Origin: Prorocentrum cordatum
Taxonomy: Eukaryota
DNA length: 56,826 bases
Assembly (NCBI GenBank): GCA_963575745.1
Contig: CAUYUJ010000063.1
Location: 62,001 to 118,826 of the forward strand
Direction of reading: 5' to 3'
Positions 15,213-56,826 of the stretch are shown here, one piece after another (position 1 is the stretch's first letter; every line of letters begins with the position of its first letter). Under the pieces are notes generated by a model that was not told the origin of the DNA, did not search any database, and worked only from the letters and a program-made list of their open reading frames with translations. The position numbers and the translations under genes were made by a program.

Positions 15213-15516
15213 GGCCGACCTGACGAGGAGGGCCAATGGCGCTCTGGCAATGAGGTGTGGGCACGACAGGACGCTCGAGATCGCTCAAACGGTGTCAGAG
15301 CAGATGGGGATCTTGCCGCATCGCCGATGCGTCGCGATGCGGTGCGATCCGCAGACCACAGCAAGCTACTCTGGCCCCACTTGGGTGGCCTCCAAAAGCC
15401 CCCCCGTGGCCTTGATCGTTTCTGCTGCCAGGTAATAGGCAACTCATTGCCTTCAACGGCATTCCGCTGCCGTGCAGAACTACCAAAATCGGTTGGCCGT
15501 GCAGAACTACCAAAAT

Positions 15517-18966: not shown

Positions 18967-19081
18967 GGTTACCACACCTGGCGATTGGTAAGACGTGTAT
19001 GGTTTACGGGCTTGGTTACCACACCTTGCGATTAAAGGGCCGAGGGAGTTCTCGCAGTTTGGGTTACCACGCCTTGCGATG
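18967..19081 (+). repeat. Three 20-bp direct repeats separated by unrelated 27- and 28-bp spacers
   Basis: ggttaccacacctggcgatt / ggttaccacaccttgcgatt / ggttaccacgccttgcgatg at 18967, 19014, 19062. Confidence 0.75.
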
Positions 19082-19082
19082 G

Positions 19083-19679
19083 ATGTGCGTGAAGGGTGGC
19101 ACCGAATTTCAGAAATGTGGCAAATCCCCTGTGTTTTTGGACCCTGACCCCGCGGATCTGCGTGAGGGGTGGCACCGAATTTCAGAAATGTGGCAAATCC
19201 CTGTGTTTTTGGACCCTGACCCCGCGGATCTGCGTGAGGGGTGGCACCGAATTTCAGAAATGTGGCAAATCCCTGTGTTTTTGGACCCTGACCCCGCGGA
19301 TCTGCGTGAGGGGTGGCACCGAATTTCAGAAATGTGGCAAATCCCTTGTGTTTTTGGACCCTGACCCCGCGGATCTGCGTGAGGGGTGGCACCGAATTTC
19401 AGAAATGTGGCAAATCCCCTGTGTTTTTGGACCCTGACCCCGCGGATCTGCGTGAGGGGTGGCACCGAATTTCAGAAATGTGGCAAATCCCTTGTGTTTT
19501 TGGACCCTGACCCCGCGGATCTGCGTGAGGGGTGGCACCGAATTTCAGAAATGTGGCAAATCCCATGTGTTTTTGGACCCTGACCCCGCGGATCTGCGTG
19601 AGGGGTGGCACCGAATTTCAGAAATGTGGCAAATCCCTGTGTTTTTGGACCCTGACCCCGCGGATCTGCGTGAGGGGTG
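19083..19679 (+). repeat. 72-73-bp tandem satellite, ~8 copies
   Basis: Unit ggatctgcgtgaggggtggcaccgaatttcagaaatgtggcaaatccc(n)tgtgtttttggaccctgaccccgc; near-identical copies. Confidence 0.97.
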
Positions 19680-29831: not shown

Positions 29832-30977
29832 CTAGCAACACCGCGATTTGTATTCTACTGGCCAAATACACGTGATGTCGTTCTCTATTTTCCTGTAAAC
29901 CACAGGAGCTCTCAGCGAGGTCAGAGGCATCAAAACAGGGTCTGAATCACCTAAAAAGATGTGTCTGGAAAACCCTTCAACGGCATTCACATGCTTAGTT
30001 GCAAGCTGCTGGACCAGCACCTGCGACTCGCCATCGTCGCATTTCACGTGGAACCACACTTGCACTGCTGCATGCATTCCGCCCGACCCCAGAAGTACAA
30101 TATCACCGCGCCTGATGCGGCCGTAATCTGCGTTGGCTTCGATGCTGGAGACGGCTGTCTGCGTCCCAGGGCACATGCGTTTCAACGAATTCAGCAACTT
30201 CTGCGTTGCGTTCGTTGGGTCGACTAAGCCAGTTGAAACACGCATGGTCTTTAAATCGTGCGCGTGCTGCGCAGTGAGTTGGACCATGAGAGCCTTCTCT
30301 AGCCCCTTCTTGCTCATGTAATCTTTGGCGAAAAATTTTACGAATTTGTGCTTGCGTTCCTGGACAAAGCAACTGAGTGACCCATGTTTTTTTTTCAAAC
30401 ACATCTGGCAAACGGGTTGCCATATGGTGCCGATACCCCCAATAGCTTCACCATATGCGTCCTCACCGAAGATGCTTCACCATCGCTGGCTCTATCTGCG
30501 CGGTTGTGACTGGAAGCCGCCGCGCCGCCGCGATGATGAAGCCAACGGCATCTTGCAGCGCCGGCGCGCTTGCGATCTGGGGGGGGGGGGGGCACTAGAT
30601 CCGACGAAGGACGCTCGGCAATCACTTGCCGAATATACCTACGCAAAACAGGCAACGTTGAGAGCTCCTCTGAAGCACTTGCTTGGAGCTCACCAGTCTC
30701 CCATGCAGTTGCGGCTGAGTGGCGTTTACTCGGCCGCGCCCAGTTCATGAAATACGCATGCAAACCGCTTGCATCACACAAATGCTTGAACTGCGCATGC
30801 CCTAGAAGTGCTCTTACTTCTCCGTCGGATATACCAGCCGCGAAATAAATATGCACCCAGTCAAAGCAAACTAATGACGCAGGGAGATATCGCGAAACTG
30901 GGCCCAGCGCTATGTGTTCGGGGTGGAGGTTCCATCCTTTGTGCTGTGTGATGGTCGCGTGCTGCCCCTCCGAAAAC

Positions 30978-31009
<32 letters not shown>

Positions 31010-31954
31010 CGCTGAAATTTATCCCAATCGGGCCGAATTCGTTCCAGGATCGCGATGATTGTCGCGTCGTAGTTTCTGCGGATCTTGGACGCATCCAAAC
31101 GCGCGTCTGTCACAAAGATACCAGATGCATCATAAGGAAGGTAATCGAACTTTCTGTTCAGGACGTCGCGACATAACGCGCAGGGCTTGGAACCAGCGTG
31201 CTTTTTATTCATGCGTAGTTCCCGCGGTGCCTCTGCGCCCCCTATGGCGCACGACAGTTGCGCGACGATCGTCGCGTGCGGCGTTGCGTCGCCGTTCTCT
31301 GACACGTCTAACGCAACGCCGCTCGTTTCAAAACTGAAGCCACCAGCATTTCTTTTTTATAGAAAAAGCAACTTCTTTGAGGATCATCTGGGTGATCTGC
31401 CCGATGCCACCTGGCATGCTTTCTATTTTTGCGCACCGCGCAATGCTAAGCGTGAACCGCGCATCTTCGTTGCCCGAGGACTCGTCGAACTCAGCGAACG
31501 ACCAGTAGACAGCATCAACCCCCCGATAACCTTTTCCTTTCGCCAGGGGTTCTCGCGGTGAAATACCATCGAAATATATAATGATGTGCCGCGGCGACGC
31601 CAAGCTGCGCGGGCGCGCCTGGCGAGAGCGGCGAAGCAGCTCCCTGACTGGAGCGCTAGCCTTGCAGCAGGAATGCAAAACTGGCCCAGGACAGCACGCC
31701 CAGTTCTCGAAATGTCTACCACTCTCCAAAGGCGTGTCGATGCAACGCAAGACATTCCCATGTGCATTCGGCTCTTTGGCAATGACGTTTTCGTCTGCCC
31801 TGTATTGTGAGCTCCGTGAAATATTCTCGGGCAACCCATGGTCTCGCACATATTTTAGGACACCCGCCAGTGCGCGCTGTGACAGGCATGGGCCCCTGTG
31901 GAGCTCCACCAGCGCCTCATCCGCCCTGCGGCGCCTGACGGAGGACGCGGCCAT
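29832..31954 (-). pseudogene. CMC/EnSpm/Plavaka-like DDE transposase, frameshifted
   Basis: Collinear motifs over 4 ORF pieces: IIIYFDGISP...AVYWSFAEF; IGGAEA...KKHAGSKPCALC; WVHIYFAAG; SCFVQERKHK. ATG at 31954 with SL relic 31957-31977. Confidence 0.7.
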
Positions 31955-32471
31955 GTTTTGAGCCCAAATGTGTACATGCTCGATGACGATGTCAGTGCGC
32001 GTCATAGGGTGCATGCGTCGTGTTACGGTAAGGGCACGCTGCATGATGCAGCTGAATGCAGTGAGACGATAGATCACAACAGAAGTGCACGTTGCATATC
32101 GATGCATATGGCATGATACGGTGTCGCCTCAGAAGCACCTGTAGGTGCATAGTAATGCATATGACGTGCGACGGTAGCTCGCATCAGAAGGGGATGTTGC
32201 GCATTGATGCATGTGACCTGCGATGTAAAGATCGCAACAGACTTGTGTTTTCGACATGCGTTGCAACAACATACAAACAAGAGCGAGTTTGCCGATGCGG
32301 CACCGCACCCCGCAGCTGCGATGCGAGCTCACAACCCCAATGGTCCTCATCATCCCCCTGGTTCTCCTCGTCGGTATGTTCCTTCTCCGCTTCCTCATAC
32401 TCGCCCCCCTCATCATCTTTCACGCCCCCCTCCTCCTCGCCCTCGCCCCCCCCCCCCCCCGCGTCGAGCGC

Positions 32472-33864
32472 CTAACGCTTGGCGTCGATCCACGCCAGCG
32501 CCGCGCGCCAAGCCTCAGCGCGATTCATCGTCGCATCGCTGTCAAAGCGGAGGCGCCGATCTGCCCGCCCCACAACGGCCCTGAACAACTTCTGAGAAGG
32601 CTTGTAAATCACGTAGCCGCACCTGCACGGCGCGTTGCGCTCGCTAGTCGGCGGCTTGGGCAGCGCGGCGGGCGTCGGCGCGGCAGCTGCGTGTCGCAGC
32701 ATGGCAGGGGGCCTCGCTTTCTTCATTACCACTGTAAGTGTAGCGTCGTCGTCTGCTCCCTCGGTGTCACCGACGCCTTCAGTAGCCGCGGAGGGGCGCT
32801 TCTCCGTTGTGGCGGCTTTGGCCTTGGTGGAGAGGATTGCCCTGAGCTTGTCCTCTTCGTCGGATAGGTCTGCTTCCTCTGGCGGCACCTTCGCCTGATC
32901 AGGACTAGGCGACACCGCCGCCATATCAGGCTGCGGCTCCTCGCGCGGCGGGAGCTTTGGTTTCGGGGGTTCCAGCTCCACGCGCGGCCGCGCAGGCGGC
33001 GCGGGCGACCTGAGAGCCGCGGTCGCCGAGTTGGCGAAGAGCGCCGCGGCCAGCGGTGCACCGAACAGGGCCTGCATGACTTGCAACTGCCCGCCAGCCG
33101 TAGGGTCTGGGGCTGTCATTGGGGGCGCTGCATATGCAGGCGTGGCCTTCGCTGCGCGGCGCCTGCTCGACTTCCTCGCGCTGTCGGGCGCGTCCGCCCG
33201 GATATCCTCCAAGGCGGGCCCCTCGTCCCTGTAAGCCGCTTTCCACCGCGGCTCCGCCGACATGTCCGCGACGCGGCCGAAGTCCCGCACCGTGGCGTAC
33301 CCGAGCGCGGACCAACCTTTGCACGTGATGGCCTGAGAGATAGCACTCTCCACTTCCCCGAGGAGCCTGAGCCAATCGCCCCCCTGCCCCTTCCCGCTGC
33401 CACGCGCCGCGAGCGCGGCCATCTTGCCCTTGCAGCTCTCGGAGAGCGCGCGGGCGCCGATCAACTTGCACCGAGCGGCGACCAGGCGTACACACGCCTT
33501 CTCACTCAGGCCGCCGCTCTTCAGCTATTTTACCTCGCTCGCTGTGAAGACCCTCGAGGCAAAGCTAATATCTTGCCACTGCTTGGGCCCGCCTGGCATT
33601 GGCAACATGCCTGTCTTGGCCCCGACGCTCTGGCACAAGCGTGCGCTGTTCTGGTGTCCAATTGTTCAGCGAGCACTCCCTGATTGTTTTCACCAGGGCT
33701 GTCGCCTCGTCAGTAGTGATCTGGTACAGGTTGCTGATCTTCATGAGGAGGCTGTCGCACTGGTGCTGGGCCACGGCTGATGGGCACAGGCCACGCTGGA
33801 CCTGCGTGGCGACCCACTCGGCCATGTGCGACAGTTCCGCACGAAGGTTGGAGACTGTCGTCAT
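32472..33864 (-). pseudogene. Element-borne protein with C-terminal AP2-like DNA-binding region, frameshifted
   Basis: MTTVSNLRAELSHMAEW... joins ...ARCKLIGARALSESC...; C-terminus GYVIYKPSQKLFRAVVGRADRRLRF...AEAWRAALAWID (3 strands + helix); SL relic 33900-33920. Confidence 0.55.
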
Positions 33865-34809
33865 CCCCGAGAGAAACTCGCGCCTCGCGACAGCTCGCGA
33901 TCGAGCCAGAATGGCTATGTACGCGAAGAGGTATGCAACCCGTTCCAGGTGGCAAACTCGCATCCGACACAAATCTTCAATGCGTCGGGTATTGCAAGTA
34001 GGCATCAGTTGATGTCGAGTTCTCGTTTCGAATATAGACCACACGCGCCCGCGTCGCATGCAACCATCGCATATATGACAATGCAAGTGTTGCCGCGGCG
34101 CGTGCCCCCGCCAGCCCATCCGATTCGAACGAAGAGCGCAGATCACCAGCAGTTGTTATCATCATACGTCTCATCCACATGTTCGTTAAGCGCGCGCGCG
34201 GCGCTCCGCCCGCGCGCGCTGGCGCCGGGGGGAAGGTCCAAGACGTGTCTTGTGGCCGCCTTGGAAGACATCAAAGAACTGGTGTTCCTGACTTAGCCCT
34301 GTCCCCCCCCCCCCCCCCTCGGGGCCATCCCAAAATCGTTTCTTGGAGCGCGCCTGGGCCGCTCTCGGAGCGTTCTTGGGCGCCATCGGTGCAGCCTTGG
34401 GGCTCTGTATGCGGTTTCTCTTGGGGCTATAGCTGTGCCATCTAACAGATATCGTGGGGCTGCGGGTGACCGCATGACGCGAAAAGGCGGAAACGCCTAA
34501 CACCATGAATTTCATTCAGGGCGCGAAGAATTATAATAGTAGTCGGAGGAGGAGCAGCGGCAGCAGCAGCAGTAGGAGGACAATGATGAGGAGGGGCGAA
34601 GAAGGAAGAGGAGGAGGATGAGGATGAGGAGGGAGGAGGGAGGAGGAGGGGGGAGGAGGGGGGAGGGAGTAGGAATATGAGGATGAGGAGGAGGAGGAGG
34701 AAGAGGAGCCTGCGTTATCATACCGCAATCTTCATCACAGAATCAACTTGCATTGTTGCATGCAGTTTTTTTTTCTGCAATCAATGCGCACCCCTCGATC
34801 CGTCGGGCC

Positions 34810-35290
34810 CTAGAGTGCCTCGCGCTCGCGGTGCGCCAGCTCAGTCAAGGCCCGTGCGTGGGCCGCGTCCGCATCATCTTTGTCGAGCAGCGCGTTCATC
34901 CACGCGTCCTTGCTCCTCGCAAACTCCCTGATCATCGTCTCTGCCCATCGGGCGGCGACGACCGAACGACGGCGCGGGGGGGGGGGGGGGCGCGGGGCGG
35001 GGGGGGATGGCGTCACCGATGTTGTCATTTAATAGGGGGGGCGGGCTCGAAGGCCCACCCTGGGGGGGGGAGGGGGGCCTCGAAAGGCCCTGCAGGGTCC
35101 GAAAGCAATGTGTTGCTGTTAGCCATAGATCACCCGCCCTCTCCTCAGCCTGCGTCACTGTCGCTTTGGTCTGCTTCGCCGCCGCCCTGGCAATCTTCGC
35201 TGCCTGCTTGCTTTCCTGTTTGGCGTCGCCTCCCGCAACTCAAACCGCACCTGCGCCTCCATCGCGAGCATCTTCGCGGATTTTCCAATG
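34810..35290 (-). pseudogene. Degraded helical/coiled-coil ORF within the element
   Basis: Pieces AKQESKQAAKIARAAAKQTKATVTQAEERAGDLW and RWAETMIREFARSKDAWMNALLDKDD broken at homopolymer runs. Confidence 0.3.
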
Positions 35291-35555
35291 GGCGCGTGGA
35301 CCGCAGATGAGGGGCGCGTGTACCACGCGTGAACAGTTTTGCAAAGGTCGGCGAGTGAACCACAAATCCTACTGACGGTTTGCCAAACGTTCGGCCCCGA
35401 CATCGTTGGCGACATGTAGTGTAGGTGTGATTGACTGGGGGGCGCGAGAGATGTGAACAGAAGGAGGGTTGGGATACGGAGGTGGCTGAGGGTGGACATG
35501 CAACGGCAGCGCCCTCTCACGACGTCGATGTGGCTGGGTGTGTGTGTGTGGTGGT

Positions 35556-35608
<53 letters not shown>

Positions 35609-36368
35609 GCGTGTGCGTGTGCGTGCGTGCGTGTGTGTGGAGGGTGGGTGGGTGTGCGTGTGCGTGTGCGTGTGCGTGTGCGTGCGTGTGTGTGTGTGGA
35701 GGGTGGGTGGGTGGGTGGGTGGGTAGGGCAGTGATGTGTGACCATCTGGTTAGCGCTCATGGCACGTGACCGCGCCGCAGCCGAGTTGGCTGAGAGTTGA
35801 GCACGCAGCGCGTAAGCTGCGGCGCGCGTGCGTGCGCGACTACGCCTGCCGCGTCAGCCCGCTTGAAGGCGCTGCGCGCCAAGCACCGCAAGGAGGGCGC
35901 GGATTATTTCAACGAAAGGTTGAACGCCTTGGTCAAGCACGCGCAGCGTTGCCAGAAGATATATCCAAATCCGCCGACCACAAGGCAGCCGTATCATGTA
36001 TGACATGGTGCAAGTGGTTGCAATTCATTCGCGTCGAAAGACGCGCTTGTTCTAGCATAGACGTTTAGGCATCGCCCAATGCAGTTGTATGCGTGATCGG
36101 TTGCGTTGAAACGCATTGCAAGCGGTTGCAGGCAGCTCGCGTCGAAAAGGCGCGCTTGTGATACTGCGGGGGGGGGGGGGGGGGGAGGGGCGTTGAGGCA
36201 GCGCCCAATGCAGTTGCATGCGCGTTCGGTTGCGTTGAAACGCACATATGCATTAACATAATGTCAGGATGTGTAATCGGTTGTGCAATGACTTGTCGGT
36301 GCGACTGTGGTTGCATGCTCTTCATCGGCTGGGCGAACGGTCGTGCTTGGCAACGGCGTGTCAACGCC

Positions 36369-36599
36369 ATGTCTGAACCCCCGCCCATGCCCGCTCGAAA
36401 AGCAGCAGCTGCATTCAAGAAGCTGGAGAAGATCGTGAAGAAGGCGGAGCGCGCCGCGGATGCGTTCACGATGCTCTTGGGTGATGCCAAGAGGTGCAAG
36501 GGTGCGGTTGATCGGGCGAAGGGTCGCCTTGTGGAGGCAGGTGCTGCCGATCGCGCGCGGGGGCGCAAGGCCGTGGGCACCGGTGGGCGCGCCGCCTGA
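36369..36599 (+). CDS. Small basic helical protein (76 aa), hypothetical
   Basis: MSEPPPMPARKAAAAFKKLEKIVKKAERAADAF...; K/R/A-rich with GC3-biased codons. Confidence 0.35.
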   Translation: MSEPPPMPARKAAAAFKKLEKIVKKAERAADAFTMLLGDAKRCKGAVDRAKGRLVEAGAADRARGRKAVGTGGRAA

Positions 36600-37829
36600 T
36601 TGTGGGTGTCGGGGCGTACTTAGATGCAGGCTCGCTGGGGCGTTGCGTGCATGCGCATATATGTGAGCCTTCAGATTGCCGTTGCCGCCTGTCGCGTGAA
36701 CCAGCGCCCTGCGGGGGGAACGAGGAGAAGATTGCGAAGGAGGGCGATGGGAAGGATGAATCTGATGAGGGGGGTGACGCGGAGGAGGCGAAGGAAACGG
36801 AGGAGGAGGACGAGGAGGATAATGGCGAGGGGGAGAGGGGGGGGGAGAAGGAGGAGGAGGAGGAGGAGGAGGAGGAGGAGAAGGAGGAGGAGGAGGAGGA
36901 GGCGTCGCCCCCGCCGTCGCCACCGCCGCCGTCGAACCCGTCGCCGCCAACTCGTCGCCGCCAACTCGTCGCCGCCGCCGTCGCTCTCGTCGCCGCCAAC
37001 TCGTCGTCGCCGCGGCCGTCGTCGCCAGAGTCGCCGCCATCGTCGTCGCTCAATCGTGGTCGCCAGCGTCGCCGACATCGTCGTCGCTCAGTCGTCGCTC
37101 AATCGTGGTCGTCACTGTGGCCGCCGCCGTCAATCGCGGTCGCCATTGCGTCGTCAATCGTGGTCGTCACTGCGGTCAGACGACGACGCAGGCGATGGCG
37201 TCGACAGCGACGACGGCGACGGCAGGAACGACGGCGACGACGTCGACGACGGCTGCGACAACGACGACGCAGGCGACAGGAGGGGGAGAATGATGAGGAG
37301 GAAGAGGAGGAAGAGGAGGAGGGGGAGGAGGAGGGGGAGGGGGAGCGGGAAGAAGAGGAGAAGGAGGACGATGATAAGGAGGGGGGGAGAGGGGAGGGAG
37401 GGGGAGGAGGGGGAGGATGAGGATGAGGAGGAGGGGGGGCCTCCCCCTCCTTCTCCTCCTCCGCCTCCTCCTCCTCCTTCTCCTGAACCTCCTCCTCCTC
37501 TCCTCCCCCTTCTCCTCGTTCTCACTCGCGCCGCGCTCGCCGCCCCACCGCGCCCTCGTCCTGATCGCCATTCGCCCTCGCCCACCCCCATCATGCGCCC
37601 CTCCCTGCCCCCCCTCTATCCCTCCCACCGCCCCTCCCTCACTCAGCGAAGATGGCGACGACTGAGATACTTTTACCAAGAAGATGGCCAGCGCGACTCA
37701 GCGGTTCGCGCCGACAAGTCATTCTAGGAACGCGTCGACCACGGGCGAGAGGGAAGCCATCCTGACCTGCGTGCTAGAACTTGATGCCCCAGGACCGAAC
37801 AATTCTGAACATGAGCTCAAGCCCCCGGC

Positions 37830-37992
37830 GTCGTATGTGAGAATCTCACATGCGACAAATCTGTCGTATGTTAGAATCTCACATACGACATCTCGCTCTT
37901 ATAGATATCTTAAGGATTATATTAACACATCCGTCGCATGTGAGACTCTCGCATACGACAACGGCGTCGCATGTTGGATTCTGACATACGAC
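37830..37992. promoter_or_regulatory. Array of four 27-bp palindromes in two pairs around an AT-rich spacer
   Basis: Consensus gtcgYatgtKagaNtctcacatacgac at 37830, 37863, 37933, 37966; spacers 6, 43 and 6 nt. Confidence 0.85.
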
Positions 37993-38217
37993 AACCCCCA
38001 CCCCAAAGCGCCATGTCGCGGGGGGGAGATGCAGCGCGCGGTCTAGAATCATCTCGGCGCCTATACGGCCGCGCTGGTGCAGCGCGCGGCGCCTATGGCG
38101 CCGCTCTCGCGGGGGCGCCCGCTCGGGCGCATCAGCGGCGAACCGCCGCCTGCGCCCAGATAGTGGGAGGAGGAACACGTTGCATTTCAAGTTCTTGGCC
38201 CTCCTCCGCCCCCCTCG

Positions 38218-38268
38218 TCACTGATAAAAATCGAGGGGTGAGGAGGGATGGGGATGCCCAAGAGAACT

Positions 38269-38304
<36 letters not shown>

Positions 38305-39555
38305 TCCCTCCTCCCAGATGCGCCAGTGGACGCTCTTGCCCCACTCGATGTAGTCGGCCTTGCCGCGGCCCGACATCAGGTCGTCAAGCCCGCTCTGCTG
38401 CTCCTTGGCAGCAGGGGCCTTCGCCAACCTGATGTGTCGGCCGCCGCGCGCCTTTTCGCCGATGTGGCCCTTGCTGCCCTTGCCGTCGTCGTAGGTGGTG
38501 CCCTTGCCGCCGTCGTGGCCTGTGTCGCCATCGTCGTAGCTCGGATCGCCGCCGTCGTAGCCCTTGCCACCGTCGCAACCAGCGCCACCGTCGTCGTAGC
38601 CCTTGCGATCAAAGTAGTCGTCGCCATTGTTGTCGTAGCCCGACCTGTCGCAGCCCTGGCTCGAGCCCTTGTCGTAGCCCGACCTGTCGCCCCAGCGCTT
38701 GAAGTAGCCGCTGTTGTCGTAGCCTGACCTGCCGTAGCCCCACGTGTCGTAGTCCCTGCTCGAGCACGCGCTGCCGCTGCGGTCGTACCGCGCGTTGTCG
38801 TAGCCACCGTCGTAGCCCTTGCGTGAGCTGCCACTGCGGTCGTGCCACTTGTTGCCGCGGTACGGGCCGTAGCTTCGGTCGTAGCCCTTGTCGCCCTTGC
38901 CACCGTCGTAGCCTTTGCCGCCCTTGCCACCGTCGTAGCCTTCGTCGCGGCCCTTGCCACTGTCGTGGCCTTTGTCACGGCCCTTGTCGCTGTCGTAGCC
39001 TTTGTCGCTGCCCTTGCTACCGCCGCAGCCATTGCCGCCCTCGTAGCCCTTGCCACCGTCGCAACCAGTGCCACCGTCGTCGTAGCCCTTGCGATCGAAG
39101 TAGCCCTGGCGATCGCTGTAGCCCTTGCCACCGCCATAGTCGCTCTGACGACTGGCGTAGTAGCCATTGTCTTCGTCGCAGTATCCTTTGGCGTCGTAGT
39201 AGCCCTGAGGGCTGTCGTCGTAGCCCTTGCCACCGTCGTAGTAGTCCTGGCCATCACCGCCATCGTCGTCGTCCTGGCCCATGAACTCCTCCACACCCTT
39301 GAACGCGTTCAAGTCGGGATCCAGCGCTGGCGCCATGCCCATGGGCGCGAGCAAGTCGTCGGCCACGCGCGAACGATAGGCGTTGTTCAGGACCCTCGCC
39401 GACGGCGGCGCCGCTGGCGACTGCGGCGTCTTCGGCCGCGGCGCCCATTTGCTGCTGGGCAGCAGAGCAGGGCGGCCGCGCTGAAGCCGCCGCTTGTTGA
39501 TGTCCTCCGCCGCCTGCAGCAACAGCGACACGGCCGCGTCGTCATCGTCCGCCAT
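38218..39555 (-). CDS. Gly/Tyr/Asp/Lys-rich (GKGYDG-repeat) low-complexity protein A
   Basis: Open frame from MADDDDAAVSLLLQAAEDINKRR through a long tract of GKGYD-type units to a non-repetitive C-terminus; runs into (AT)n. Confidence 0.55.
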
Positions 39556-40449
39556 CGCGCTGCTGCGATGGTGCTGCTGGTTACGAATGGTGCTGCTGGT
39601 TGCGCTGGTTGCGCCGGTAGCTGCTGCGCGTGGAGCGCTGCTGCTGGTCGCGCGCTGCCGCGACCCAAGCAATGCTCGGGTCACAACGGTTGTGGCTACG
39701 GATGAGGATGAGGTCGGGGGGGTATTCACATCATAGCGTAGCATTGCATGTCGCACCATAGCCACATCATGGCGCGCGGCGCTGAGGTCGCTGTGAGGTT
39801 GCCTGGGACTGAGTTAATTGCGAGGCTGTCTCGAGCGAGCGCAGACGACGATGGCTGCGCAGGCTATATCTCATTTTAGTGTTCACGTCCACAAGTCTAT
39901 TCTGAAACAACGCATGCCTGTAGCAAACTACTGCATGCACCCATAAGTGCACATGGCGAAAATAGTCGGCCGCGTCGGCCGCGACGTCGCGAGTCCTGGC
40001 ACTCCCCCCCCCCCCCCCCCATCATTCGAATAGTTTCTGGTTGGGGTTCGGGGTCGGCCCAGGGGGCGCGTTGTTTCCGCTGCTGCATGTTGCGCAAGGC
40101 CCCCTGGAGGACCCCTTTCTTCTCTTGAGGGGGGCGTGGCCGCTCGCGAGCGGCGTCGCGCCCGATGGCTTCGCTGCCCGACGCCGCGGCCGACGAGGCC
40201 GAGGTGTCGCTCCACGGCGCGCAGGCGGCGGCCTTCGCCCGCCTGCGCGAGGACTGCGGGAACGAGAACGGGGGGAGGTGGAGATGGAGTTGGACGAGAA
40301 GGATGAGGGAGGAAGAGGATGACGACGATGGCGACGAGGATGGCGAGGAAGAAGGGGGGGGAGGATGAGGATGAGGAGGGATGCACATGAGGAGGAGGAC
40401 GAGGAGGAGGACGCACATGATGAGGAGGAGTGATCTGTCTTCTATATAG

Positions 40450-41475
40450 GAGCTGGCGTGGGAGCGGCAGCTGACGGGCCGCTACGAGAGGCCGCTGCAG
40501 TGCGTGCAGATGGCCAGTGCGCTGATCAGCAGCAAGGGCAAGGGCAAGGGCAACTGCGACGACGGCAAGGGCTACTACGGCGGCAAGGGCTACTACGACG
40601 ACGATGTCAAGGGCTACTTCGGTGGCAAGGGCATCCACATGGACTACGACGGTGATGGCAAGGGCTACTGCGACGACGTTGGGAAGGGTTACGACGGCAA
40701 GGGCTACGACGGCAGCGGCAAGGGCCGCGACAAAGGCTACGACAGTGACGGCCGCAAGGGCTACTACGGCGCCCGCTATGGCTTGCGGTGCTACTCGAGC
40801 GACGACGACGCCGACAGCGGCAAGGGCCACGACGGTGGCAAGGGCCACGACGGTGGCGCGGGCAGCGACGCAGGCTACGACGGTGGCAAGGGCAGCTCGA
40901 GCAAGGGCTTCGACAAGGGCTACGACGGCAGCAAGGGCAGCGACAGCGGCTGCGACCCGTGCGGCAGCTCGAGCAAGGGCCACAACAAGGGCTACGACGG
41001 CAAGGGCCACGACAAAGGCTACGACGACAGGGCCATCGACGACGATGGCAAGGGCTACTACTACGGTGGCAAGGGCTACTACGACGGTGGCACGGGCTAC
41101 AACGGTGGCAAGGGCAGCACCGACGGTGGCGAGGGCTACGACGGTGGCAAGGGCAGCACCGACAGTGGCAATGGCTACGACGGTGGCAAGGGCAACTGCG
41201 ACGGTGGCACGGGCTACGACGGTGGCAAGGGCGACGACGATGGCGGCGACCTTAAGGGCCCCAGCGACTCCTCGGGCTACGGCGGCGAAGCTGCCAACGA
41301 CACGGACCGCGACGGATGCATGAGCATCGGCAGCAGCACGAGGGCGGATGGTCACACGATCATCACGGGGGACGCCGATGTGCCGAACAGCGGCATGCCT
41401 GACGGCGGCCCTCCGTATCTTGAGCTGAGTTCTGTTACTGCGTCCCCGCCGCCAGCGGTGTCGGGGCCGGAATGA
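40450..41475 (+). pseudogene. GKGYDG-repeat protein B, divergent from A; 5' part disrupted
   Basis: Same ggcaagggctacgac unit on the opposite strand; open 323-aa frame; upstream acidic segment has stops. Confidence 0.5.
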
Positions 41476-41573
41476 GCGTGCGAGGCTAAAACCGAATAAA
41501 GATGGGAGGGGAGGGGAAGGGGAGGTAAGGGAAGGTGAAGAGGGGGTGGGGCTGCATGCATGCTGCTGCTGCC

Positions 41574-43067
41574 CTAAGCGTCCTCGAGATGCGATCCATC
41601 ACCTGGCGGCGAACCGTCGCCTGGCGAACCATCGCCTAGTGGCGGACCATCGCCTGGTGGCGAACCATCGCCTGGTGCGGCTGGCGAGCCATCGCCTTCC
41701 TCCACCATCCCATCCTCCACCATCTCCTCGTCCTGCAGCTCGGTTGCGGTCTGTCTCGCTAGGCGCTCACGAAGGGTCTGGGCCGCGTTGTTGATGTATG
41801 TAGGCGTCCAATCGTCCACCCATTCCTGCATCCGCCTACCGTTGACCACCAGAAATGCAGTCTTGCGACGTTTGTCGCATTTCACACCTTCCACCCCTGC
41901 TGCTGGCGCCGACCGCACACGTTGCGCTTCCTCTTGGATGCGCGACGCCGCTGCTGCGATAGATGCAACTCGTATATACTCAAGCGCCTGTGGCGCACAT
42001 TCGACCCATGCCTTTTTAGTAGCATTCACTTCGAAAAGCAACTTCAAGGTCACTGCATCGCGATGCAAACTCTCGTCACCATGATCGCACTGGGCCGCGG
42101 GCATGTGCACCGAGACAGTGGCTGGTAGGCCACCAGCCCTTGGGGGCGCATGTCTAGAATGTCCACGAAGATTGCACAAGATAGCACGCGATGCATCAAC
42201 ATGTCCCCAAAACTGCCCCACGCAGCCCCACGACCGCCTCAAGACGGCCCCCCAATGGTGCCCCCAAGACGCCACAATGTTTCGAACCGTAGGGAAAGAG
42301 AATGTGTTGGTGTTCTCGCCGTTTCCCTTCCGATACTCATCCGAAGTCTCAAGACCCCGCGACGACCCAACAGAGCGCCACGAGGGGCCCGATTTTTATA
42401 CATATAAATGTGTTAAATATCCACAAGACAGAACGCCGAAGGGCGCTCCAAGAGTGGCCCAAGAGCGGCCCATGGGGGGAGGTGAATTAAGGTACCCCTC
42501 CTCGTCCTCCTCCTCCTCCGCTGCCCTCCTGCTCCTGCCCCCCCCCCCCCCCTCCCTTTCGTCATCCTCGCCTTCCTCTTCCTCATCCTCCGTTGTCCTC
42601 CTCGCCATCCTTCAATTTCTTTTCCTCCTCCTGTCTCCGCCCCGCCCCTCCTCCTCATCATCGCATTTCTCCTCCTCTTCCTCGCCGTTCCTCCTTCTCT
42701 GGTGGGAATGCGCGAAGCGTCTACAATAGCGACGCATCCAGAGTACCTCGAGTGTTCTCAATGGCACTGGCTCTGTCACAATCTTGCTGAAGCAAGGGGT
42801 CGTTCTGCAGCAAGCGATTCCAAATGGCCCCGTCGCAGGCGGCGCTGCGCATCCTCTTGGTCTGATCGAAGAACGGGTTTGTCGCCGACGGCGCGTTGCT
42901 CTTGTTGGGGCTGGGGGCAGAGGTGAACTTCTGAAGCTGGCGATCGGCCCTCGACAGCTCCACGACGAGGGCCCCTGCCGTATGCATCGCAGCCCTCGGG
43001 GCCCATGGCTCGCGATCCTTAAGGCCACCCCGTCTATGGCCGCGCGGAGCTGCACGCTCGCTGCCAT
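41574..43067 (-). pseudogene. Element-borne protein with AP2-like motif, split by a repeat insertion (~42150-42715)
   Basis: VELSRADRQLQKF...NPFFDQTKRMRSAACD then KAWVECAPQALEYIR...VEGVKCDKRRKTAFLVV (cf. AP2 GV.WDK...W). Confidence 0.45.
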
Positions 43068-43262
43068 CTGCAGCCGTAGCGCGTGCGAAGCCGCAGCGTG
43101 CACTCGCTCGGGCACGACGCAATGAACAATTGCAGACGAGGCCAAGGCGTGGACACAATGATGCAACAATTGCAGACGAACGATAACGACTATGCTTACA
43201 TACATTTCATGAACACCCCCTCACCATATGTTATGTGTAACCGATGCTGCAGAACGCAAGTC

Positions 43263-45675
43263 TCAGCGCCTCCTAGCCTTCTTTGCCGCGGGCGCAGCAG
43301 GCACATCGTCTACCTTGCGCTCCGGCATGAGCGATGTCATCTGGGCGCTATGGACATCGCCCTTATTGATGGCGCACTTGTTCGTCAAAACTGGCACAGA
43401 CACTGATGGGGCAGCTGTAGACTTGATGTTATTGACATTCATGTTGGGGGTGCCGTGCTCACCTGAATCCTGCGCGAGCCAGAAGGGGATGACGAGCGAA
43501 GTCGGTGCCTGCTTCAGCCCCCCAACGCCAGTGTTCGTCTCAGCCTTAGGCATCTTGATGCCACCACTGGGGGCCAACGCGATATTGAACGTCAATCCCT
43601 CGGGGTCTTTGTGCGTCTTTATGAACGCATTCCCGCCCTGAGCTATACCAGTTTGCTTCTTCATGAAGATAGTCGACGTGAGTGGGGCAAGCACCAGCTC
43701 TTCAGCCTCAAACGAACGCGTTGCGGTGAGAGCACGAAGCTTAACAGGCGTAATCACGCCACTCAAGTACTTCAGACAGTCACTGTTCTGGTTGTATACG
43801 TCGTCCAAGGCCAGCCTGATTTTGGCCCCCTCGATACTCCACTGGTAATCGACCGACTTGAGGGGGCCATGCTCAACAAACGTGTCGATAGTTTCTTATC
43901 GGATGGGAGAGCAGCGACGAAAAACGCTGAGACATGAAGACGGGTGGTAAGCTGAATGAGATGGGGGAGCGACGAAAGAGAATTCAAATGCATGGTGATG
44001 TATATGCATTTCAAATGCATTGCGACGAGATCGCAAGACTGTCCTTCATAATCGTGTACACGACGAACTTGCCACGTAGGAAGTCGTCGACGGGGTGGGA
44101 TACCGCATTGCCAGTGGCCTGAAGCTTCAACTTCACGCCAGTCGCGGCGTCGATGGAGATCAGCTCGTAGATGTTCTCACCCGAGTTGTCGCTCGCCAAG
44201 GCGACTTTGGCGCCAACCTCAAACCCCTTGTCACTGAGCTTGTCCACTTGGTTCGACCACTTGCCTGAAGCGGTGTGCACTTTCACATCTGAGCTGCGCC
44301 CCTGCCCTGTCACGGCTTTGGGCGCGCTCTCGGTCTGTTTCCATGGGCTAGCAACTGATTTGCCAACGTGCGTTGCCAACGCAGAGGTGAAGCTGACCCC
44401 GGTGTCATTCAGCGTCTTGCAAGTGCCTAAGCGCTCATCGGGCTTGTTGGACACGAAGTGAACTACGCGAACGTCAGTCAATCCCACGATGGTGCCGTAG
44501 GCGACCGTGTCTGCCTTGATGCCTTGACCGTTTGCGATCTGTCACGCCTTCTGAAGAAACTCATCGGCCATCACTACAATCGTAGACTTCTTATCGCTCG
44601 ACAAGGCGGTCACGTCGCCTGGCTTCAAAAGCATCTGATGACCATCCCTCGCGAGCTCACCCGTCGCGCATGTCATCGCCTTCGCGCGTGCGAGCTTGAA
44701 TGTTACAGCGGCCCCCCCTTGCTTGATCTGCGCGTCGGCGAGAGACTTCGCCATGGAACCCGCGACCGCGCACTGGGAGGTCAGCTGCCGCGAGAAGTCG
44801 CGAAGCTCGTTCAGGAAGATCGGGTTGGCGAGGCCGCCAGACAACTCGTTCACGTATTTTACTAAGCTACCGATCTCCCCGGGCAAGAGAGAGCCTGCGC
44901 GAGTCGTCTCGCGGATGACGCTGTCCCAGTCGATGGCGCCGCTTGCATGGTGGCGGTTCGCAATGGCTGCGATCTTGTACATCAGACTCATGCGACTCTC
45001 GCACCTCGCAATCTGCTGACCAGCATTGCCAGCTTCTTGCGCAAGGTTGCTAATCCATGGGAGCTGCTTGACAAACTCAGATCGAAACACCTTCCATTCG
45101 ATGCCCTCGTCGCAAGCCTTTGCGTAATCGGGCTGCACTCCCCGCAATCTCGTCAATGAAAATTTGCCTTGATGCGAAATTTTGTCAAATCGCTCTGGCA
45201 TTACCGAAGGCACTGTAACTTCTGCGTTGAAGCAACGCAAACCCATGCTAGTGTGCCCACAAGTATAGCTTGCGAACTTGGCATCGCAATCATCGCGCGG
45301 CAACTTGCCTGCAGAATCCTGCATTATTTTGAAATTGAACGTCTTGATCTTCTCATACTCAGGCGTACCAACTGGTGGAAGTTACATGCAAGCTGGATTC
45401 TGGAGGGCCGACGTTTTGAATCCATTCCTGAAGATCTTCGAGACCAAATCCAAAACCTCGTCGGGGATAATACCATCCCCATACAGATTCTCCATGCTCA
45501 CAAACATATATTTCGAGTGTATCTTCTCCACCCTGAGGCAATCGATGCTCCTGGCGATCCCGCATACATCTTCAAATAATGAGACCACCGCTGCATCTGG
45601 ATGCAAATTCGATTGCTTGATTGCCACCATCTTACCACTGACATCCGCTATCTGCTGTTCACGGGAGGCGTTCAT
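43263..45675 (-). pseudogene. Large protein: N-terminal ParB/Srx-like domain, C-terminal SET-like domain, basic NLS-like tail; frameshifted
   Basis: MFVSMENLYGDGIIPDEVLDLVSKIFRNGF ... ASYTCGHTSMGLR (ParB-like helix/GF and GH..R boxes); LTATRSFEAEELVLAP ... PNM ... VPVLTNKCAINKGDV (SET-like); ends KKARRR; tandem SL relics 45717-45750. Confidence 0.55.
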
Positions 45676-46096
45676 TACGCCGTGTGCAGGAGGACGCCAC
45701 AAGCGCCAGCAGCAATCCTAGCCCAAACGGCTTGAGCCCAAACTCTACTGACATTCAAAAAACGTGCAACAGAGGGTTGCACATTCGAAATGAGATGTCG
45801 CATTTGCCATGCGCAACATTATTGCAACGCTCGAGACAATATCCTGACTGCGTTCACACGCAAGTCTAAATCATGATTTCCGATCTGTATCACAACAAAA
45901 TCCAAACACATGCGTGCGTTTCTGGGGGCAACATCCAAGGACAACCCGATGCAGCAGCTCTGTTTGCAAGTAAGCATGTAAAAGTTAGCGAATTTAGTAA
46001 CTTTGCGAATTCGGGCGATCTACCTCCAACTGCACCGACCGAGTTAGCCGAGTTAGTAACGTTACTAACGGCTATAACCTACTTGTAACATACTTA

Positions 46097-46532
46097 CTCC
46101 GAGTACCTCAATAGTTCTGGGGTGCGCAATAGTCCGGGGGCGGCCCCTGTAGTCTGGGGGTTGGGCCCCTGTAGTCCGGGGTGGGTTTTTTGGGGGCCCT
46201 TGTAGTCCGGGGGGGGGCCCTTGTAGTCCGGGGGGGGGGCCCTTGAAGTCCGGGGGGGGGTCCCTGTAGCCCGGGGGGGGGGGGGAGGGGCGGTGTGATC
46301 TTCGCGGGGCGACGTCCCGCTCGACGACCGCCTTGCTTCCGGGTCATTGTAGTCCGGGGGTGGGTTCCTGTAGTCCGGGGGGGGTGCCCTTGTAGTCCGG
46401 GGGGGGGTCCTGGTAGTCCGGGGGGGGGTCCCTGTAGTCCGGGGGGGGGGCCCTTGTAGTCCGGGGGAGGGGCCCTTGAAAGCCGGGGGGCCCCTGTAGT
46501 CCGGGGGACCAGAACTATTGAGGTACTCAGAG
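46097..46532. mobile_element. Tc1/mariner-type MITE with TA TSD inserted in the right TIR of the 17-kb element
   Basis: ta|ctccgagtacctcaatagttctgg ... ccagaactattgaggtactcagag|ta (23/24 TIR match); interior of ~21-bp tgtagtccggggggg units. Confidence 0.9.
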
Positions 46533-54846: not shown

Positions 54847-56826
54847 GCGACCCGACTCGTGAGGCAGAAGGCCATGAGCGAACCGTGCAGCTCTGTTCTG
54901 TGCCAGCCAGCGCCGTAGCCCAGGCAATCCCGAAGGCGTTCAGAGGCAGTGAACGTTTCAGCATGCTGGTAAGGGAAGGCCGCCCCCCCCTCCTACGTCG
55001 TCTGAGACTCCTGACCTTTTCCGACTCCGAGGCCCGAGCTTTCCCGAGCATTTTGTTGTGCACCGACCTCCCCCACCCCCCCACCCCCGAACCGAAGCGA
55101 AAGGGAAGGGGCAGAGGAGGCCAGGGCAGGGGAGTAGAGGAACCAGCGAGAGGGCATTCGTAAAAGCGGGTGCTACCCTGCCCGCGGACCCTTTGCGTGG
55201 GGTAGGTCGGTGCAGGTAGGGCCCGAGCATCTAGGTGATGCCAGCGACCCCCTTTCAGCAAAGTGATCTCAGCTAGGCCACCAGATTTTGTAATGCCGCA
55301 CTAACCCCGAGAGAGTGTAGCACCGAACTGGCCCGAGAGCTCGATCGATCGATCGATCCTCCTCCTCCTCCTCCTCCCCCTCCCCCTCCTCCTCCTTCTC
55401 CTCCTCCTCCTCCTCCTCCTCCTCCTCCTCCTCCTGTCCCTCCTCCCGCTTCCCCTCCGCCCCTCCCCTCCTCGCTGTCGCGCCTGTCGCGTGCTCCGTC
55501 TTGCTTCTCTCCCTCCCCCTCGCCACATAGAGAGAGAGGCTCGAGCCTCAAGCATCGAAGTTCGGACACTCTGAGGGCCCTCCCCGGCCTCTGGGAAGCC
55601 CTTCGTCGTCACGACTAGACTCCTTCGACGCCATGGGGATCGGTGGGCATCGAGGGACGTGGTTGCCGAGGGTTTCGGGGATTTGCCAGAACTTTGTGAG
55701 GGTCCCTGTCGCCACGGCGGAAGTCCCTTCGGAATCCGTGTCTCAGATTATGATGTTCCAACCTATTTTAGCCTTGACCACCAGAAAGAATTTCGAGCGC
55801 CAACAAAATACCGAAATTCATGGATTTTCGCGTGTCGGGCCCTGGGAGACACTCGTCCGACACTGTTTCGACACTTTTTCGGCACTTTTCCGGGTGCTCG
55901 AAATTATTTCTGGGATGTGGTCTTGAAGTACGATGGGAGCAACATACATCTCAGAGCGCATCCTACGAGAGGCCTAGAGGACGACATTTTCGAAGCACCA
56001 TCAAGAGAAGAAGGTACTGATGCAAAGGGGTTATGATATTCTTCGCCTCTCTCGGCCTTCTATGGACCAGCCTCTTCAGTCATTACCAACGCTCCCATCG
56101 CCTCGTTGCATCGTTTAGGCTGACCGTGCCGCTCGCAGGGCTGGTATCCATTGACTCAGAAACGTTGCGCAGCCATCTGCCTACAGGTAGAAGCGCGCGC
56201 GCGGCTGGCCTCCCTCCCTCGGCCGGATCATACACGCATATGCTTGTGCCTATCTCGCTGAGCGGACACACCCAAAGCCATGGCCGCCTCACCCCCATGC
56301 CCCCCTTGTCCCCTCCGATCCGAAGCTGCAGAAGGAATGCATCAGCGCAAACATCACGACCGGAGCCCCGCACCCCTATCTTCCTGCGTCATTGTCCGAG
56401 CCGGATCGATTTGCGAGGGCCTCTTGGGGCTCGAAGCCTGGCGGCCCCGCCCGTCGTGAAAATGCAGATGCAACGCCGAGATCTGCGGACCCCCCGCCCC
56501 CCGCTGGCCCGCGTCATGATCCCCCCCCGGGCCTCTGGCACGGCCCCCGCCCGGCCCCCAGCTCCACCGCATCCTGGCGGTGCCCCTGGCATCGCTCGGG
56601 CGTGCGCATCTCTGGGGGGCGAGGACCACCGAGGAGCATCCTGGACCAGCTTGCGAAAAAATGCACGCACGACACCGGCAAATGCACGGGGAACGGACGG
56701 ACGTCTGAGCGATGGCGAGCCCCCCCCCCTCGCGGGCGGGGGTTGGGCCTCCCTGCCCGCCTCGAGGGACACCCAGTCACCCTCCCCGCCTCCCCTGAGT
56801 GATCCGACGTAGGGGGGGGGGGGGGG

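What the first reader, a model, noticed from the sequence alone, without database searches (positions are those of the whole stretch)
37830..37992. Four 27-bp palindromes around an AT-rich core at the centre of the giant element
Seen: gtcgtatgtgaga-a-tctcacatgcgac and three variants (13-bp arms, 1-nt centre). They form two pairs with 33-bp period (about 3 helical turns) flanking a 43-nt spacer with an AT-rich core, and lie close to the element midpoint once the MITE is subtracted. Inference: this architecture resembles dimeric protein-binding sites such as a parS-like loading site, an iteron+DUE origin or a recombination site. The same element encodes ParB-like and AP2-like candidate binders, suggesting a cis-site/trans-factor system.
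Basis: partly seen in the sequence, partly recalled or inferred. Interest (0 to 1): 0.8.

Follow-up and report, generated by a model that had tools for sequence, protein, structure and literature searches.

The report
Palindrome array in ParB-bearing mobile element
Four near-identical 27-base palindromes around an AT-rich core are real and sit in a high-copy repeat that also carries a gene with a bacterial ParB-type DNA-binding fold, so they are probably docking sites for that protein, an arrangement recently proposed but never tested for algal transposons.

Summary
Four 27-bp palindromes lie at 37830-37856, 37863-37889, 37933-37959 and 37966-37992, in two pairs 33 bp apart, around a 43-nt spacer of 30% GC (0 of 100 shuffles give any match).

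A second copy survives as a protein record (P0008, EukProt, Pyramimonas sp.). It has the same left flank, four units instead of two, and almost the same spacer. Contigs of run X1 also show extra units in 33-bp register. So palindromes plus spacer form a conserved module with a variable unit number. In the three copies seen it is not a free MITE.

The "ParB-like" gene is real (43266-45810, minus strand) but dead in this copy. Its family is large (2637 clusters) and has no Pfam match. A confident model aligns to ParB, Noc and KorB at modest Z. I found no transposase, AP2 domain or element ends.

Best reading (0.42): a cluster of binding sites for a dimeric element protein, most likely the ParB-like one. 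A 2025 preprint proposes the same pairing for red-algal Plavaka transposons. This scan noted it twice on other DNA. I file it as a new member of a known, untested kind.

The parts
37804..37829 (.). Left flank that travels with the array
   Evidence: Its translation SEHELKPPA aligns to SKHEIKPVV of P0008. An X1 contig starts to match the window at 37804 (table 7).
37830..37856 (.). Palindrome P1 (13-bp arms, centre A; one arm mismatch at position 5)
   Evidence: Its translation plus linker (SYVRISHATNL) is identical to unit 1 of P0008.
37863..37889 (.). Palindrome P2 (one arm mismatch at position 10)
37890..37932 (.). 43-nt AT-rich spacer (30% GC) holding an 8-bp perfect palindrome AGATATCT
   Evidence: It is conserved in P0008 (SRSYRYLKDYINTS against SRSYRYHKDYINTS). 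It is not a decayed fifth unit (shuffle fractions 0.61 and 0.375).
37933..37959 (.). Palindrome P3 (two arm mismatches)
   Evidence: It is closer to the reverse complement of P1 (2 differences) than to P1 itself (4).
37966..37992 (.). Palindrome P4 (three arm mismatches)
44014..45810 (-). ParB-like gene, N-terminal and middle part (ParB/Srx-like domain, helix-turn-helix, helical region); dead copy
   Evidence: tblastn of P0001-P0007 (P0001 at 73% over 393 columns). The translation has 4 in-frame stops, 2 of them inside the conserved part, and the near-invariant NR motif reads NL. Family model pLDDT 93.2; ParB-family structural matches.
43266..43904 (-). C-terminal domain of the same gene, in another frame (frameshift or short intron near 44012-44041)
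   Evidence: Residues about 530-745 of five long family members (P0011, P0029, P0038, P0065, P0090) align to 43353-44012. No Pfam match.
30000..46000 (.). Stretch shown to be a high-copy repeat in run X1 (tested extent only, not the element's ends)
   Evidence: 2798 X1 contigs laid at 80% or more likeness, all 30 bins covered, summed word depth 24-880 outside low-complexity bins.

Best explanation
The array is a cis-acting cluster of recognition sites for a sequence-specific DNA-binding protein that binds as a dimer and is encoded by the same repeat family. The most likely binder is the ParB-like protein, whose gene lies 5.3 kb away (43266-45810, minus strand). That copy is dead, so protein would come from intact copies elsewhere. 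Each 27-bp palindrome would take one dimer. Sites 33 bp apart (about three helical turns) would put neighbouring dimers on roughly the same face of the DNA. The conserved AT-rich spacer would be an easily bent or melted centre between the two blocks. By analogy with ParB-parS and KorB-OB, and with the proposal for PAG3 in red-algal Plavaka transposons, binding would mark the element as self. It could then bring the protein's C-terminal domain, of unknown activity, to the element's DNA or chromatin. Shown: the sites, their conservation with the spacer in a second copy, the variable unit number, the ParB-like fold, and the high copy number of the 30-46 kb stretch that holds both. Inferred: binding, the identity of the binder, dimer formation, and any downstream effect. 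Of the 0.42, about 0.3 is for the ParB-like protein and about 0.12 for another element protein.
For: Site anatomy. There are four units with 13-bp arms and a 1-nt centre, and the half-site occurs nowhere else in 56.8 kb beyond chance. The same 9 of 13 half-site positions are invariant in all 8 arms. All 7 arm mismatches fall on positions 5, 9, 10 and 11 and none is compensated. This fits position-specific reading by a protein better than selection for pairing.

Conservation. P0008 carries the same left flank, unit 1 identical (11 of 11 residues), 13 of 14 spacer residues identical, and two extra 11-residue (33-nt) units. The left flank matches in only 5 of 9 residues. An X1 contig of depth 172 joins 37890 back to 37826 with one letter between, which keeps the 33-bp register.

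Binder. The family of the 43266-45810 gene has 2637 representatives at E up to 0.001. Its model has pLDDT 93.2. The top 12 of the 50 rows listed in the second-look alignment (995 chains aligned) are ParB-family chains. 6sdk_B, 7bnk_A and 7ng0 align over 191-197 residues, nearly their whole N-terminal plus DNA-binding domains, to model residues 50-367. Residues 223-290 also match TetR-type helix-turn-helix domains.

Precedent. The Bostrychia preprint (passages read) reports tandem arrays of inverted repeats next to ParB-like PAG3 genes across Plavaka families and proposes self-binding.
Against: No binding data exist. The structural matches are modest: Z 5.2-6.3, where the tool warns that Z under 8 can reflect a common arrangement. 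Foldseek gave no match at E up to 0.001. The gene is 5.3 kb from the array, with other ORFs between, and is dead in this copy. Only three copies of the array were seen, two of them indirectly (a protein translation, and summary rows from contigs). Unit number varies, as in any minisatellite. In this copy 8 of 104 half-site positions depart from the consensus, which is not clearly less than the decay of the surrounding element, so selection is not shown. I could not show that the gene family is homologous to PAG3, nor that the repeat is a transposon.
Confidence: 0.42

Rival explanations
1. The array is a neutral internal minisatellite. A 33-bp unit that happens to be palindromic was amplified by slippage inside a decaying repeat and does nothing.
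For: Unit number differs between copies: 2 on the left in the window, 4 in P0008, and more in register in X1. The window is full of tandem arrays (93 rows). This copy's units carry 1-3 arm mismatches, mostly transitions.
Against: The non-repeated AT-rich spacer is kept between copies (13 of 14 residues) while the flank is less alike (5 of 9). The linkers between units differ much more than the units do (by eye). Each unit is a 13+1+13 palindrome, which slippage does not explain.
Confidence: 0.22
2. It is a foldback-type nested element or long hairpin. The 163 bp would be one inverted repeat (60-nt arms built of sub-repeats, 43-nt loop) that extrudes as a cruciform or hairpin and acts through structure. 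It would be either a small non-autonomous element that landed in the big repeat before it spread, or a recombination or processing signal.
For: Arms 37830-37889 and 37933-37992 are 80% complementary. The lowest-energy fold pairs P1 with P4 and P2 with P3. P1 is nearer to the reverse complements of P3 and P4 (2 and 3 differences) than to P3 and P4 themselves (4 and 6). Variable numbers of sub-repeats in the arms recall foldback transposons (recalled, not checked).
Against: I saw no target-site duplication at the borders (by eye). Homology with P0008 and the X1 contig runs 26 nt past the left border and, weakly and by eye, further. The context is therefore the same in all three copies. No arm mismatch is compensated.
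Confidence: 0.16
3. It acts as an RNA hairpin. The array would be transcribed and the hairpins would serve as a source of small RNAs against the element, or as an RNA signal.
For: The predicted RNA fold is strong (z -9.4). A copy appears in a protein set of a cultured alga that may derive from a transcriptome. I recall that many EukProt algal sets do, but I did not check this one.
Against: Of the 6 arm mismatches that are transitions, 4 are G-U-compatible on the plus strand and 2 on the minus strand, so there is no strand bias (my count). No RNA run was listed for the stretch, which shows nothing either way. Rfam has no match in the window.
Confidence: 0.1
4. It is a replication origin (repeated initiator sites plus an AT-rich unwinding element) of an episomal or viral phase; or it is a junction or subterminal set of transposase-binding sites.
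For: The AT-rich core lies between repeated sites and is conserved in a second copy.
Against: No Rep, helicase, polymerase, ParA or transposase match reached its Pfam cut-off in the 278 ORFs scanned. No element ends or symmetric flanks lie around the array. No circular form was seen; I could not test for one.
Confidence: 0.1

Closest known systems
PAG3 (Plavaka accessory gene 3) with adjacent tandem arrays of inverted repeats, giant Plavaka/EnSpm transposons of the red alga Bostrychia moritziana (bioRxiv 10.1101/2025.02.11.637652; passages read)
   Same: Both have a large high-copy element and an accessory protein with no InterPro or Pfam domain whose N-terminus resembles ParB only by remote methods. 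Their best HHpred hit is 7BNR; 7bnr_A is row 7 here (Z 6.0). Both have a second, C-terminal domain and a tandem array of inverted repeats in the same element. Self-binding is proposed and untested in both.
   Different: Homology of this family to PAG3 was not tested, as I had no PAG3 sequence. No PAG2-type methylase or SET gene and no EnSpm transposase were found here. The C-terminal domain here shows no conserved His-x-Asp...His in the family consensus. The array is 5.3 kb from the gene, not next to it, and is split by a conserved AT-rich spacer. The host is not a red alga.
ParB-like domain fused to a DNA methyltransferase in the 21.5-kb Sola1-1_Ec32 transposon of Ectocarpus (PMC12477816; passages read)
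   Same: A ParB-like DNA-binding accessory protein carried by a giant algal DNA transposon, proposed to bind its own element.
   Different: No methyltransferase domain was found in this family (0 Pfam families in 24 long members). No site array is described in the passage I read.
Bacterial ParB-parS, Noc-NBS and KorB-OB (solved chains 6sdk, 7bnk, 7bnr, 7bm8, 7ng0, 7ol9, 8qa8)
   Same: The order of domains that aligns is the same (N-terminal ParB/Srx-like domain, then helix-turn-helix). The sites are palindromes bound by dimers and often clustered.
   Different: Z is only 5.2-6.3 at 9-12% identity. The CTP-binding motif was not checked. No ParA was found. The site is 27 bp, not the shorter bacterial sites (lengths recalled). 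The host is eukaryotic.
VANDAL transposons of eudicots, whose accessory protein binds motifs of its own element and lifts silencing (named in the preprint passage; otherwise recalled)
   Same: An element-encoded protein that recognises repeated short motifs of its own element.
   Different: The protein family is unrelated, and the motifs are dispersed rather than in one array.
Foldback transposons and MITEs with sub-repeated arms (recalled)
   Same: Inverted arms built of tandem sub-repeats in variable number, around a unique centre.
   Different: No target duplication was seen and no copy lies in a foreign context among the three seen. Each sub-repeat is itself a palindrome.

Membership tests
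ParB-like accessory gene plus inverted-repeat array in giant algal DNA transposons (PAG3 / Plavaka type) | Accessory protein with an N-terminal ParB-like DNA-binding domain | tested here: met
   Model pLDDT 93.2. The top 12 of the 50 rows listed (995 chains aligned) are ParB-family chains, Z 5.2-6.3, with up to 197 of 199 target residues aligned. The Z values are modest, and Foldseek gave nothing at E up to 0.001.
ParB-like accessory gene plus inverted-repeat array in giant algal DNA transposons (PAG3 / Plavaka type) | Tandem array of inverted repeats adjacent to that gene | tested here: inconclusive
   The array is real and lies in the same high-copy stretch. It is 5.3 kb from the gene's 3' end, with ORFs between.
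ParB-like accessory gene plus inverted-repeat array in giant algal DNA transposons (PAG3 / Plavaka type) | C-terminal 2OG-dependent oxygenase domain | tested here: inconclusive
   A C-terminal domain exists. It has no Pfam match and no PDB sequence match. The family consensus shows no conserved histidines there. It was not folded on its own.
ParB-like accessory gene plus inverted-repeat array in giant algal DNA transposons (PAG3 / Plavaka type) | Sequence homology to PAG3 | not tested
ParB-like accessory gene plus inverted-repeat array in giant algal DNA transposons (PAG3 / Plavaka type) | DDE transposase, terminal inverted repeats and target duplication | tested here: not met
   None of 278 scanned ORFs reached a transposase family. 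No credible long-range inverted ends were found. The window may not hold the whole element, and 160 low-complexity ORFs were not scanned.
ParB-like accessory gene plus inverted-repeat array in giant algal DNA transposons (PAG3 / Plavaka type) | Companion genes PAG1 and PAG2 (N6-adenine methylase PF01555 plus SET) | tested here: not met
   No PF01555 or SET match among the scanned ORFs.
Bacterial ParABS partition system | ParA ATPase partner | tested here: not met
   No ParA/CbiA-type Pfam match in 278 ORFs.
Bacterial ParABS partition system | CTP-binding arginine motif in the N-terminal domain | not tested
   The near-invariant residues are N-R after the first strand and a histidine in a C-x-H-T motif. 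I did not map them onto the ParB pocket.
Iteron plus unwinding-element origin | AT-rich unwinding element beside repeated sites | tested here: met
   43 nt at 30% GC in a window of about 60% GC, conserved in P0008.
Iteron plus unwinding-element origin | Initiator (Rep) gene in the element | tested here: not met
   No Rep, helicase or polymerase match.
MITE / foldback element | Terminal inverted repeats | tested here: met
   60-nt arms, 80% complementary.
MITE / foldback element | Target-site duplication and copies in unrelated contexts | tested here: not met
   No flanking direct repeat (by eye). The three copies seen share the left flank. A genome-wide census was impossible because no genome is held.

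The most novel reading that the evidence does not exclude
The palindromes are a eukaryotic counterpart of parS. The element's ParB-like protein would load on them as a nucleotide-gated clamp, with the AT-rich core as entry or bending point. It would then spread over the 10-kb-scale element and deliver its C-terminal domain, marking the element as self to escape or set silencing. That would be a bacterial partition-type module reused by a very large, unannotated family of eukaryotic mobile elements (2637 protein clusters).
Probability: 0.15. Interest if true: 0.85.

Novelty: new member of a known kind. Interest (0 to 1): 0.45.

Why it matters
ParB-like accessory proteins of giant algal transposons have been proposed to bind their own element (passages read). 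In those passages no site-protein pair is tested. This locus gives a sharply defined candidate site: a 13-bp half-site with nine invariant positions, in a compact array with a conserved spacer. It also gives intact relatives of the candidate binder (P0160, P0161). Together these make a direct EMSA or DAP-seq test simple. The protein family is large (2637 clusters at 50% identity), matched no Pfam family in the 30 members scanned, and was not found in the prokaryote genome or viral contig scans. Naming its fold and a likely target is useful for annotating protist genomes.

Tried and rejected
- **Whole genome:** none is held, so no census of the palindrome was possible.
- **Public DNA scans with the degenerate 27-mer:** the metagenome contigs gave 2 loci, both single GC-rich chance matches with other inner bases. 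Viral contigs gave 0.
- **Loci of the ParB-like family:** viral contigs gave 0 confirmed of 60 and of 5 pattern matches. Prokaryote genomes gave 0 of 17 and 0 of 46. Alignment A2 was too diverse to scan with.
- **Sequencing runs:** no RNA holder was listed. Only Logan contigs could be laid, so starts, ends, strand and copy number cannot be read.
- **Spacer as a decayed fifth unit:** rejected. The alignment score is no better than shuffles (fractions 0.61, and 0.375 with transitions ignored).
- **Homology upstream of 37804 between the window and P0008:** not significant in one frame (p 0.10) and not found by tblastn. By eye, the X1 loose end resembles 37742-37762, with about 32 extra nt in the window.
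- **Second protein search with the minus-strand frame over P3, P4 and the right flank:** 0 of 387 candidates.
- **ESM Atlas:** no usable hit for the ParB-like ORF or for P0008.
- **First structure model from 6 sequences:** too poor to use (pLDDT 55.7).
- **Homodimer prediction of the ParB-like protein:** no verdict.
- **Profile searches against PDB sequences:** nothing meaningful.
- **Rfam:** no match in the window.
- **AP2-like and other minus-strand ORFs at E up to 10:** no relevant Pfam family.
- **Long-range inverted ends:** only low-complexity pairs, plus a short repeat family at 7095-7160, 55751-55815 and 55890-55950. These do not bound an element centred on the array.
- **Literature:** searches. 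"CCMP1952" is in none of the papers held.

Full report
**The observation**

Reading 37600-38250 and a pattern search confirm four 27-bp units with 13-bp arms and a 1-nt centre. They lie at 37830-37856, 37863-37889, 37933-37959 and 37966-37992, with 0, 1, 1 and 3 mismatches to the degenerate consensus. None of 100 dinucleotide-preserving shuffles of the window gave a match.

Starts are 33, 70 and 33 bp apart. The 43-nt spacer (37890-37932) is 30% GC, in a window that runs near 60% GC. It is one of only 10 AT-rich islands in 56.8 kb.

The 13-nt half-site at up to 2 mismatches occurs 10 times. Eight of these are the eight arms. The other two have 2 mismatches each, as chance predicts (mean 2.17). 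So the motif is confined to this one place.

In the eight half-sites, positions 1-4, 6-8 and 12-13 never vary. Positions 5, 9, 10 and 11 carry all 7 arm mismatches, and none is compensated.

The whole 163 bp is also one imperfect inverted repeat with 60-nt arms, 80% complementary. P1 is closer to the reverse complements of P3 and P4 than to P3 and P4 themselves. The lowest-energy fold is one long hairpin (z -8.0 as DNA, -9.4 as RNA).

**Other copies**

No genome is held for this window. Scans of metagenome and viral contigs with the degenerate 27-mer gave only two chance matches and none, respectively. Two indirect routes did work.

First, contigs of a low-coverage run X1 (547 million letters) were laid at 80% or more likeness. 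They cover all 30 bins of 30000-46000, with summed word depths mostly between 60 and 530. Of the 2798 contigs laid, 2426 are under 95% alike. The stretch is therefore an old, high-copy repeat in organism A.

One X1 contig of depth 172 joins 37890 back to 37826 with a single letter between. This adds units while keeping the 33-bp register exactly. One contig departs from the window to the left of 37804.

Second, I translated the open frame that happens to run through the array and searched the protein collection with it. This found one record (1 of 8 candidates): P0008, 105 residues, EukProt EP00959, labelled Pyramimonas sp. CCMP1952.

Its alignment shows the following:
- the same left flank (SKHEIKPVV against SEHELKPPA);
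- a first unit plus linker identical in 11 of 11 residues;
- two extra 11-residue units, so four units where the window has two;
- the same spacer (13 of 14 residues);
- the start of the next palindrome, where the record ends.

By eye, the X1 loose end translates to the residues that precede the flank in P0008. The X1 form and the P0008 form therefore look like the same variant.

Three conclusions follow. Palindromes plus AT-rich spacer are one conserved module. The number of units is not fixed, so the tidy "two pairs" is a feature of this copy only. It does not settle that case.

The spacer is not a decayed fifth unit. A search with the other frame over the right half found nothing.

**The surroundings**

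I scanned 278 stop-to-stop ORFs against Pfam in three sets:
- 184 of the 358 ORFs of 90 aa or more, chosen by sequence entropy;
- 80 ORFs of 50-89 aa from 19 kb onward (the 80 kept, by entropy and position, from 317 window-wide);
- 14 long low-entropy ORFs.

About 160 low-complexity ORFs were left out. No family reached its curated cut-off, and no transposase, AP2, ParA, Rep or methylase match appeared.

I found no credible long-range terminal inverted repeats. The only non-trivial pair belongs to a short repeat family at about 7.1 kb and 55.8-55.9 kb. So I cannot confirm that there is a bounded "giant element", nor that the array is at its midpoint.

**The ParB-like gene**

The minus-strand ORF 44545-45381 has real relatives: 7 proteins, the best at 83% identity. 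tblastn extends the gene to 45810-44041.

This copy is dead. It has four in-frame stops, two of them in the conserved part, and the near-invariant NR motif reads NL. Five long relatives place a further C-terminal domain on 43353-44012, in another frame. Intact relatives of 633-646 residues exist (P0160, P0161).

A profile search of 1.84 billion representatives found 2637 family members at E up to 0.001, of which 371 are at 1e-30 or better. None of the 30 members scanned has a Pfam match. The named members are all "hypothetical protein" from metagenomes. Prokaryote genomes and viral contigs hold no relative.

With 83 sequences, AlphaFold gave a confident model (pLDDT 93.2, pTM 0.84). The structure searches gave this:
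- Foldseek found nothing at E up to 0.001, though Noc and ParB appear among its weak rows.
- The exhaustive aligner gave a best Z of 6.1. ParB-N, sulfiredoxin, PadC, serine kinase and KorB scored Z 5.0-5.5. TetR-type helix-turn-helix domains matched residues 223-290.
- In the second look at Foldseek's top 1000 chains, the top 12 of the 50 rows listed are all ParB-family chains (Z 5.2-6.3). Several align over 189-197 residues, almost their full N-terminal plus DNA-binding domains, to model residues 50-369.

Each Z is modest and the tool warns about values under 8. My judgement rests on how consistently the ParB family leads the list and how fully its chains are covered. On that basis, "ParB-like N-terminal domain followed by a helix-turn-helix" is the right description of the fold. 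It does not show function.

**Comparison with what is known**

Two papers bear on this directly.

The Ectocarpus transposon survey (PMC12477816; passages) describes a ParB-like domain fused to a DNA methyltransferase in a 21.5-kb Sola1 element. It says such proteins may bind and modify their own transposon.

The Bostrychia preprint (10.1101/2025.02.11.637652; passages) describes PAG3. This is an accessory protein of giant Plavaka transposons that has no InterPro domain. Its N-terminus matches ParB by HHpred (best hit 7BNR, E 0.29), and it has a putative 2OG-oxygenase C-terminus. [quoted passage not shown]

The present locus has the same ingredients: a remote ParB-like fold (7bnr_A is among my matches), a second C-terminal domain, a high-copy large repeat, and a tandem array of inverted repeats. 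I therefore file it as a new member of that known but untested kind.

Several caveats apply. Homology to PAG3 was not tested. No transposase or PAG2-like gene was seen here. The C-terminal domain shows no conserved histidines in the family consensus. The array is 5.3 kb from the gene.

This scan has noted the same pairing twice before on other DNA: e1-7359102 in a euglenid and e1-7335275. In both, the palindromes are scattered through non-coding stretches rather than gathered in one array.

**Mechanism**

The reading I favour (0.42) is that the palindromes are docking sites for a dimeric, sequence-specific protein of the element, most likely the ParB-like one supplied in trans from intact copies. 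The 33-bp spacing would phase neighbouring dimers on roughly one face of the DNA. The conserved AT-rich core would act as a flexible or meltable centre.

The pattern of variation fits reading by a protein better than selection for base pairing. The same nine positions are fixed in all arms, and position 5 is free and uncompensated. With four units in one decayed copy, this is suggestive only.

The rivals are:
- a functionless palindromic minisatellite (0.22);
- a foldback-type nested element or structural hairpin (0.16);
- an RNA hairpin or small-RNA source (0.10);
- an origin or transposase-site cluster (0.10).

A dimer prediction for the protein gave no verdict and counts neither way.

**Verdict**

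Interest is moderate. The idea is already in print for red algae and has been seen elsewhere in this scan. This locus nonetheless offers a clean, testable site-protein pair for a very large, unannotated family.

Noticed in passing
window 43266-45810 (-): Dead copy of a gene from a very large protein family with no Pfam match in the 30 members scanned (2637 clusters at 50% identity; 700-950 aa intact forms on metagenome contigs, intronless). It has a ParB-like N-terminal fold, a helix-turn-helix and an uncharacterised beta-rich C-terminal domain.
   Followed up: partly
window 38221-39813 (-) and 40450-41475 (+): Two ORFs in opposite orientation, both encoding Gly/Lys/Tyr/Asp-rich repeats (GGKGYD-like), 72-80% alike at DNA level as an inverted pair. 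X1 depth is lower here (60-95) than on either side, so this may be a separate insert or cargo lying just right of the array.
   Followed up: no
window 7887-9760 and 15517-17400: 1.9-kb direct repeat, 97.7% identical, 7.6 kb apart. This is a recent segmental duplication or two copies of another element.
   Followed up: no
window 19081-19679: Tandem array of a 73-bp unit, 8.2 copies, 98% matches.
   Followed up: no
window 4756-4783, 4825-4850 and 15316-15335: Two further palindromes (12- and 13-bp arms) sharing the core GCATCGGCGATGC, 70 bp apart, with a related 20-nt inverted match 10.5 kb away. This is a different motif from the one studied.
   Followed up: no
window 7095-7160 (+), 55751-55815 (+), 55890-55950 (-): Short repeat family of about 65-100 nt. 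The two right-hand copies face each other like the ends of a small inverted-repeat element.
   Followed up: partly
whole window: Earlier notes on this genome call it a dinoflagellate or a GC-rich marine protist. The only named relative of the array is labelled as a prasinophyte green alga, Pyramimonas sp. CCMP1952. The host's identity, or contamination of one data set, is unresolved.
   Followed up: no
window 46192-46507: Tandem 21-bp repeats rich in G and C runs (units containing GGGCCC), 4.2 and 7.7 copies, 400-700 bp upstream of the ParB-like gene. They also read as a Pro-rich minus-strand ORF.
   Followed up: no
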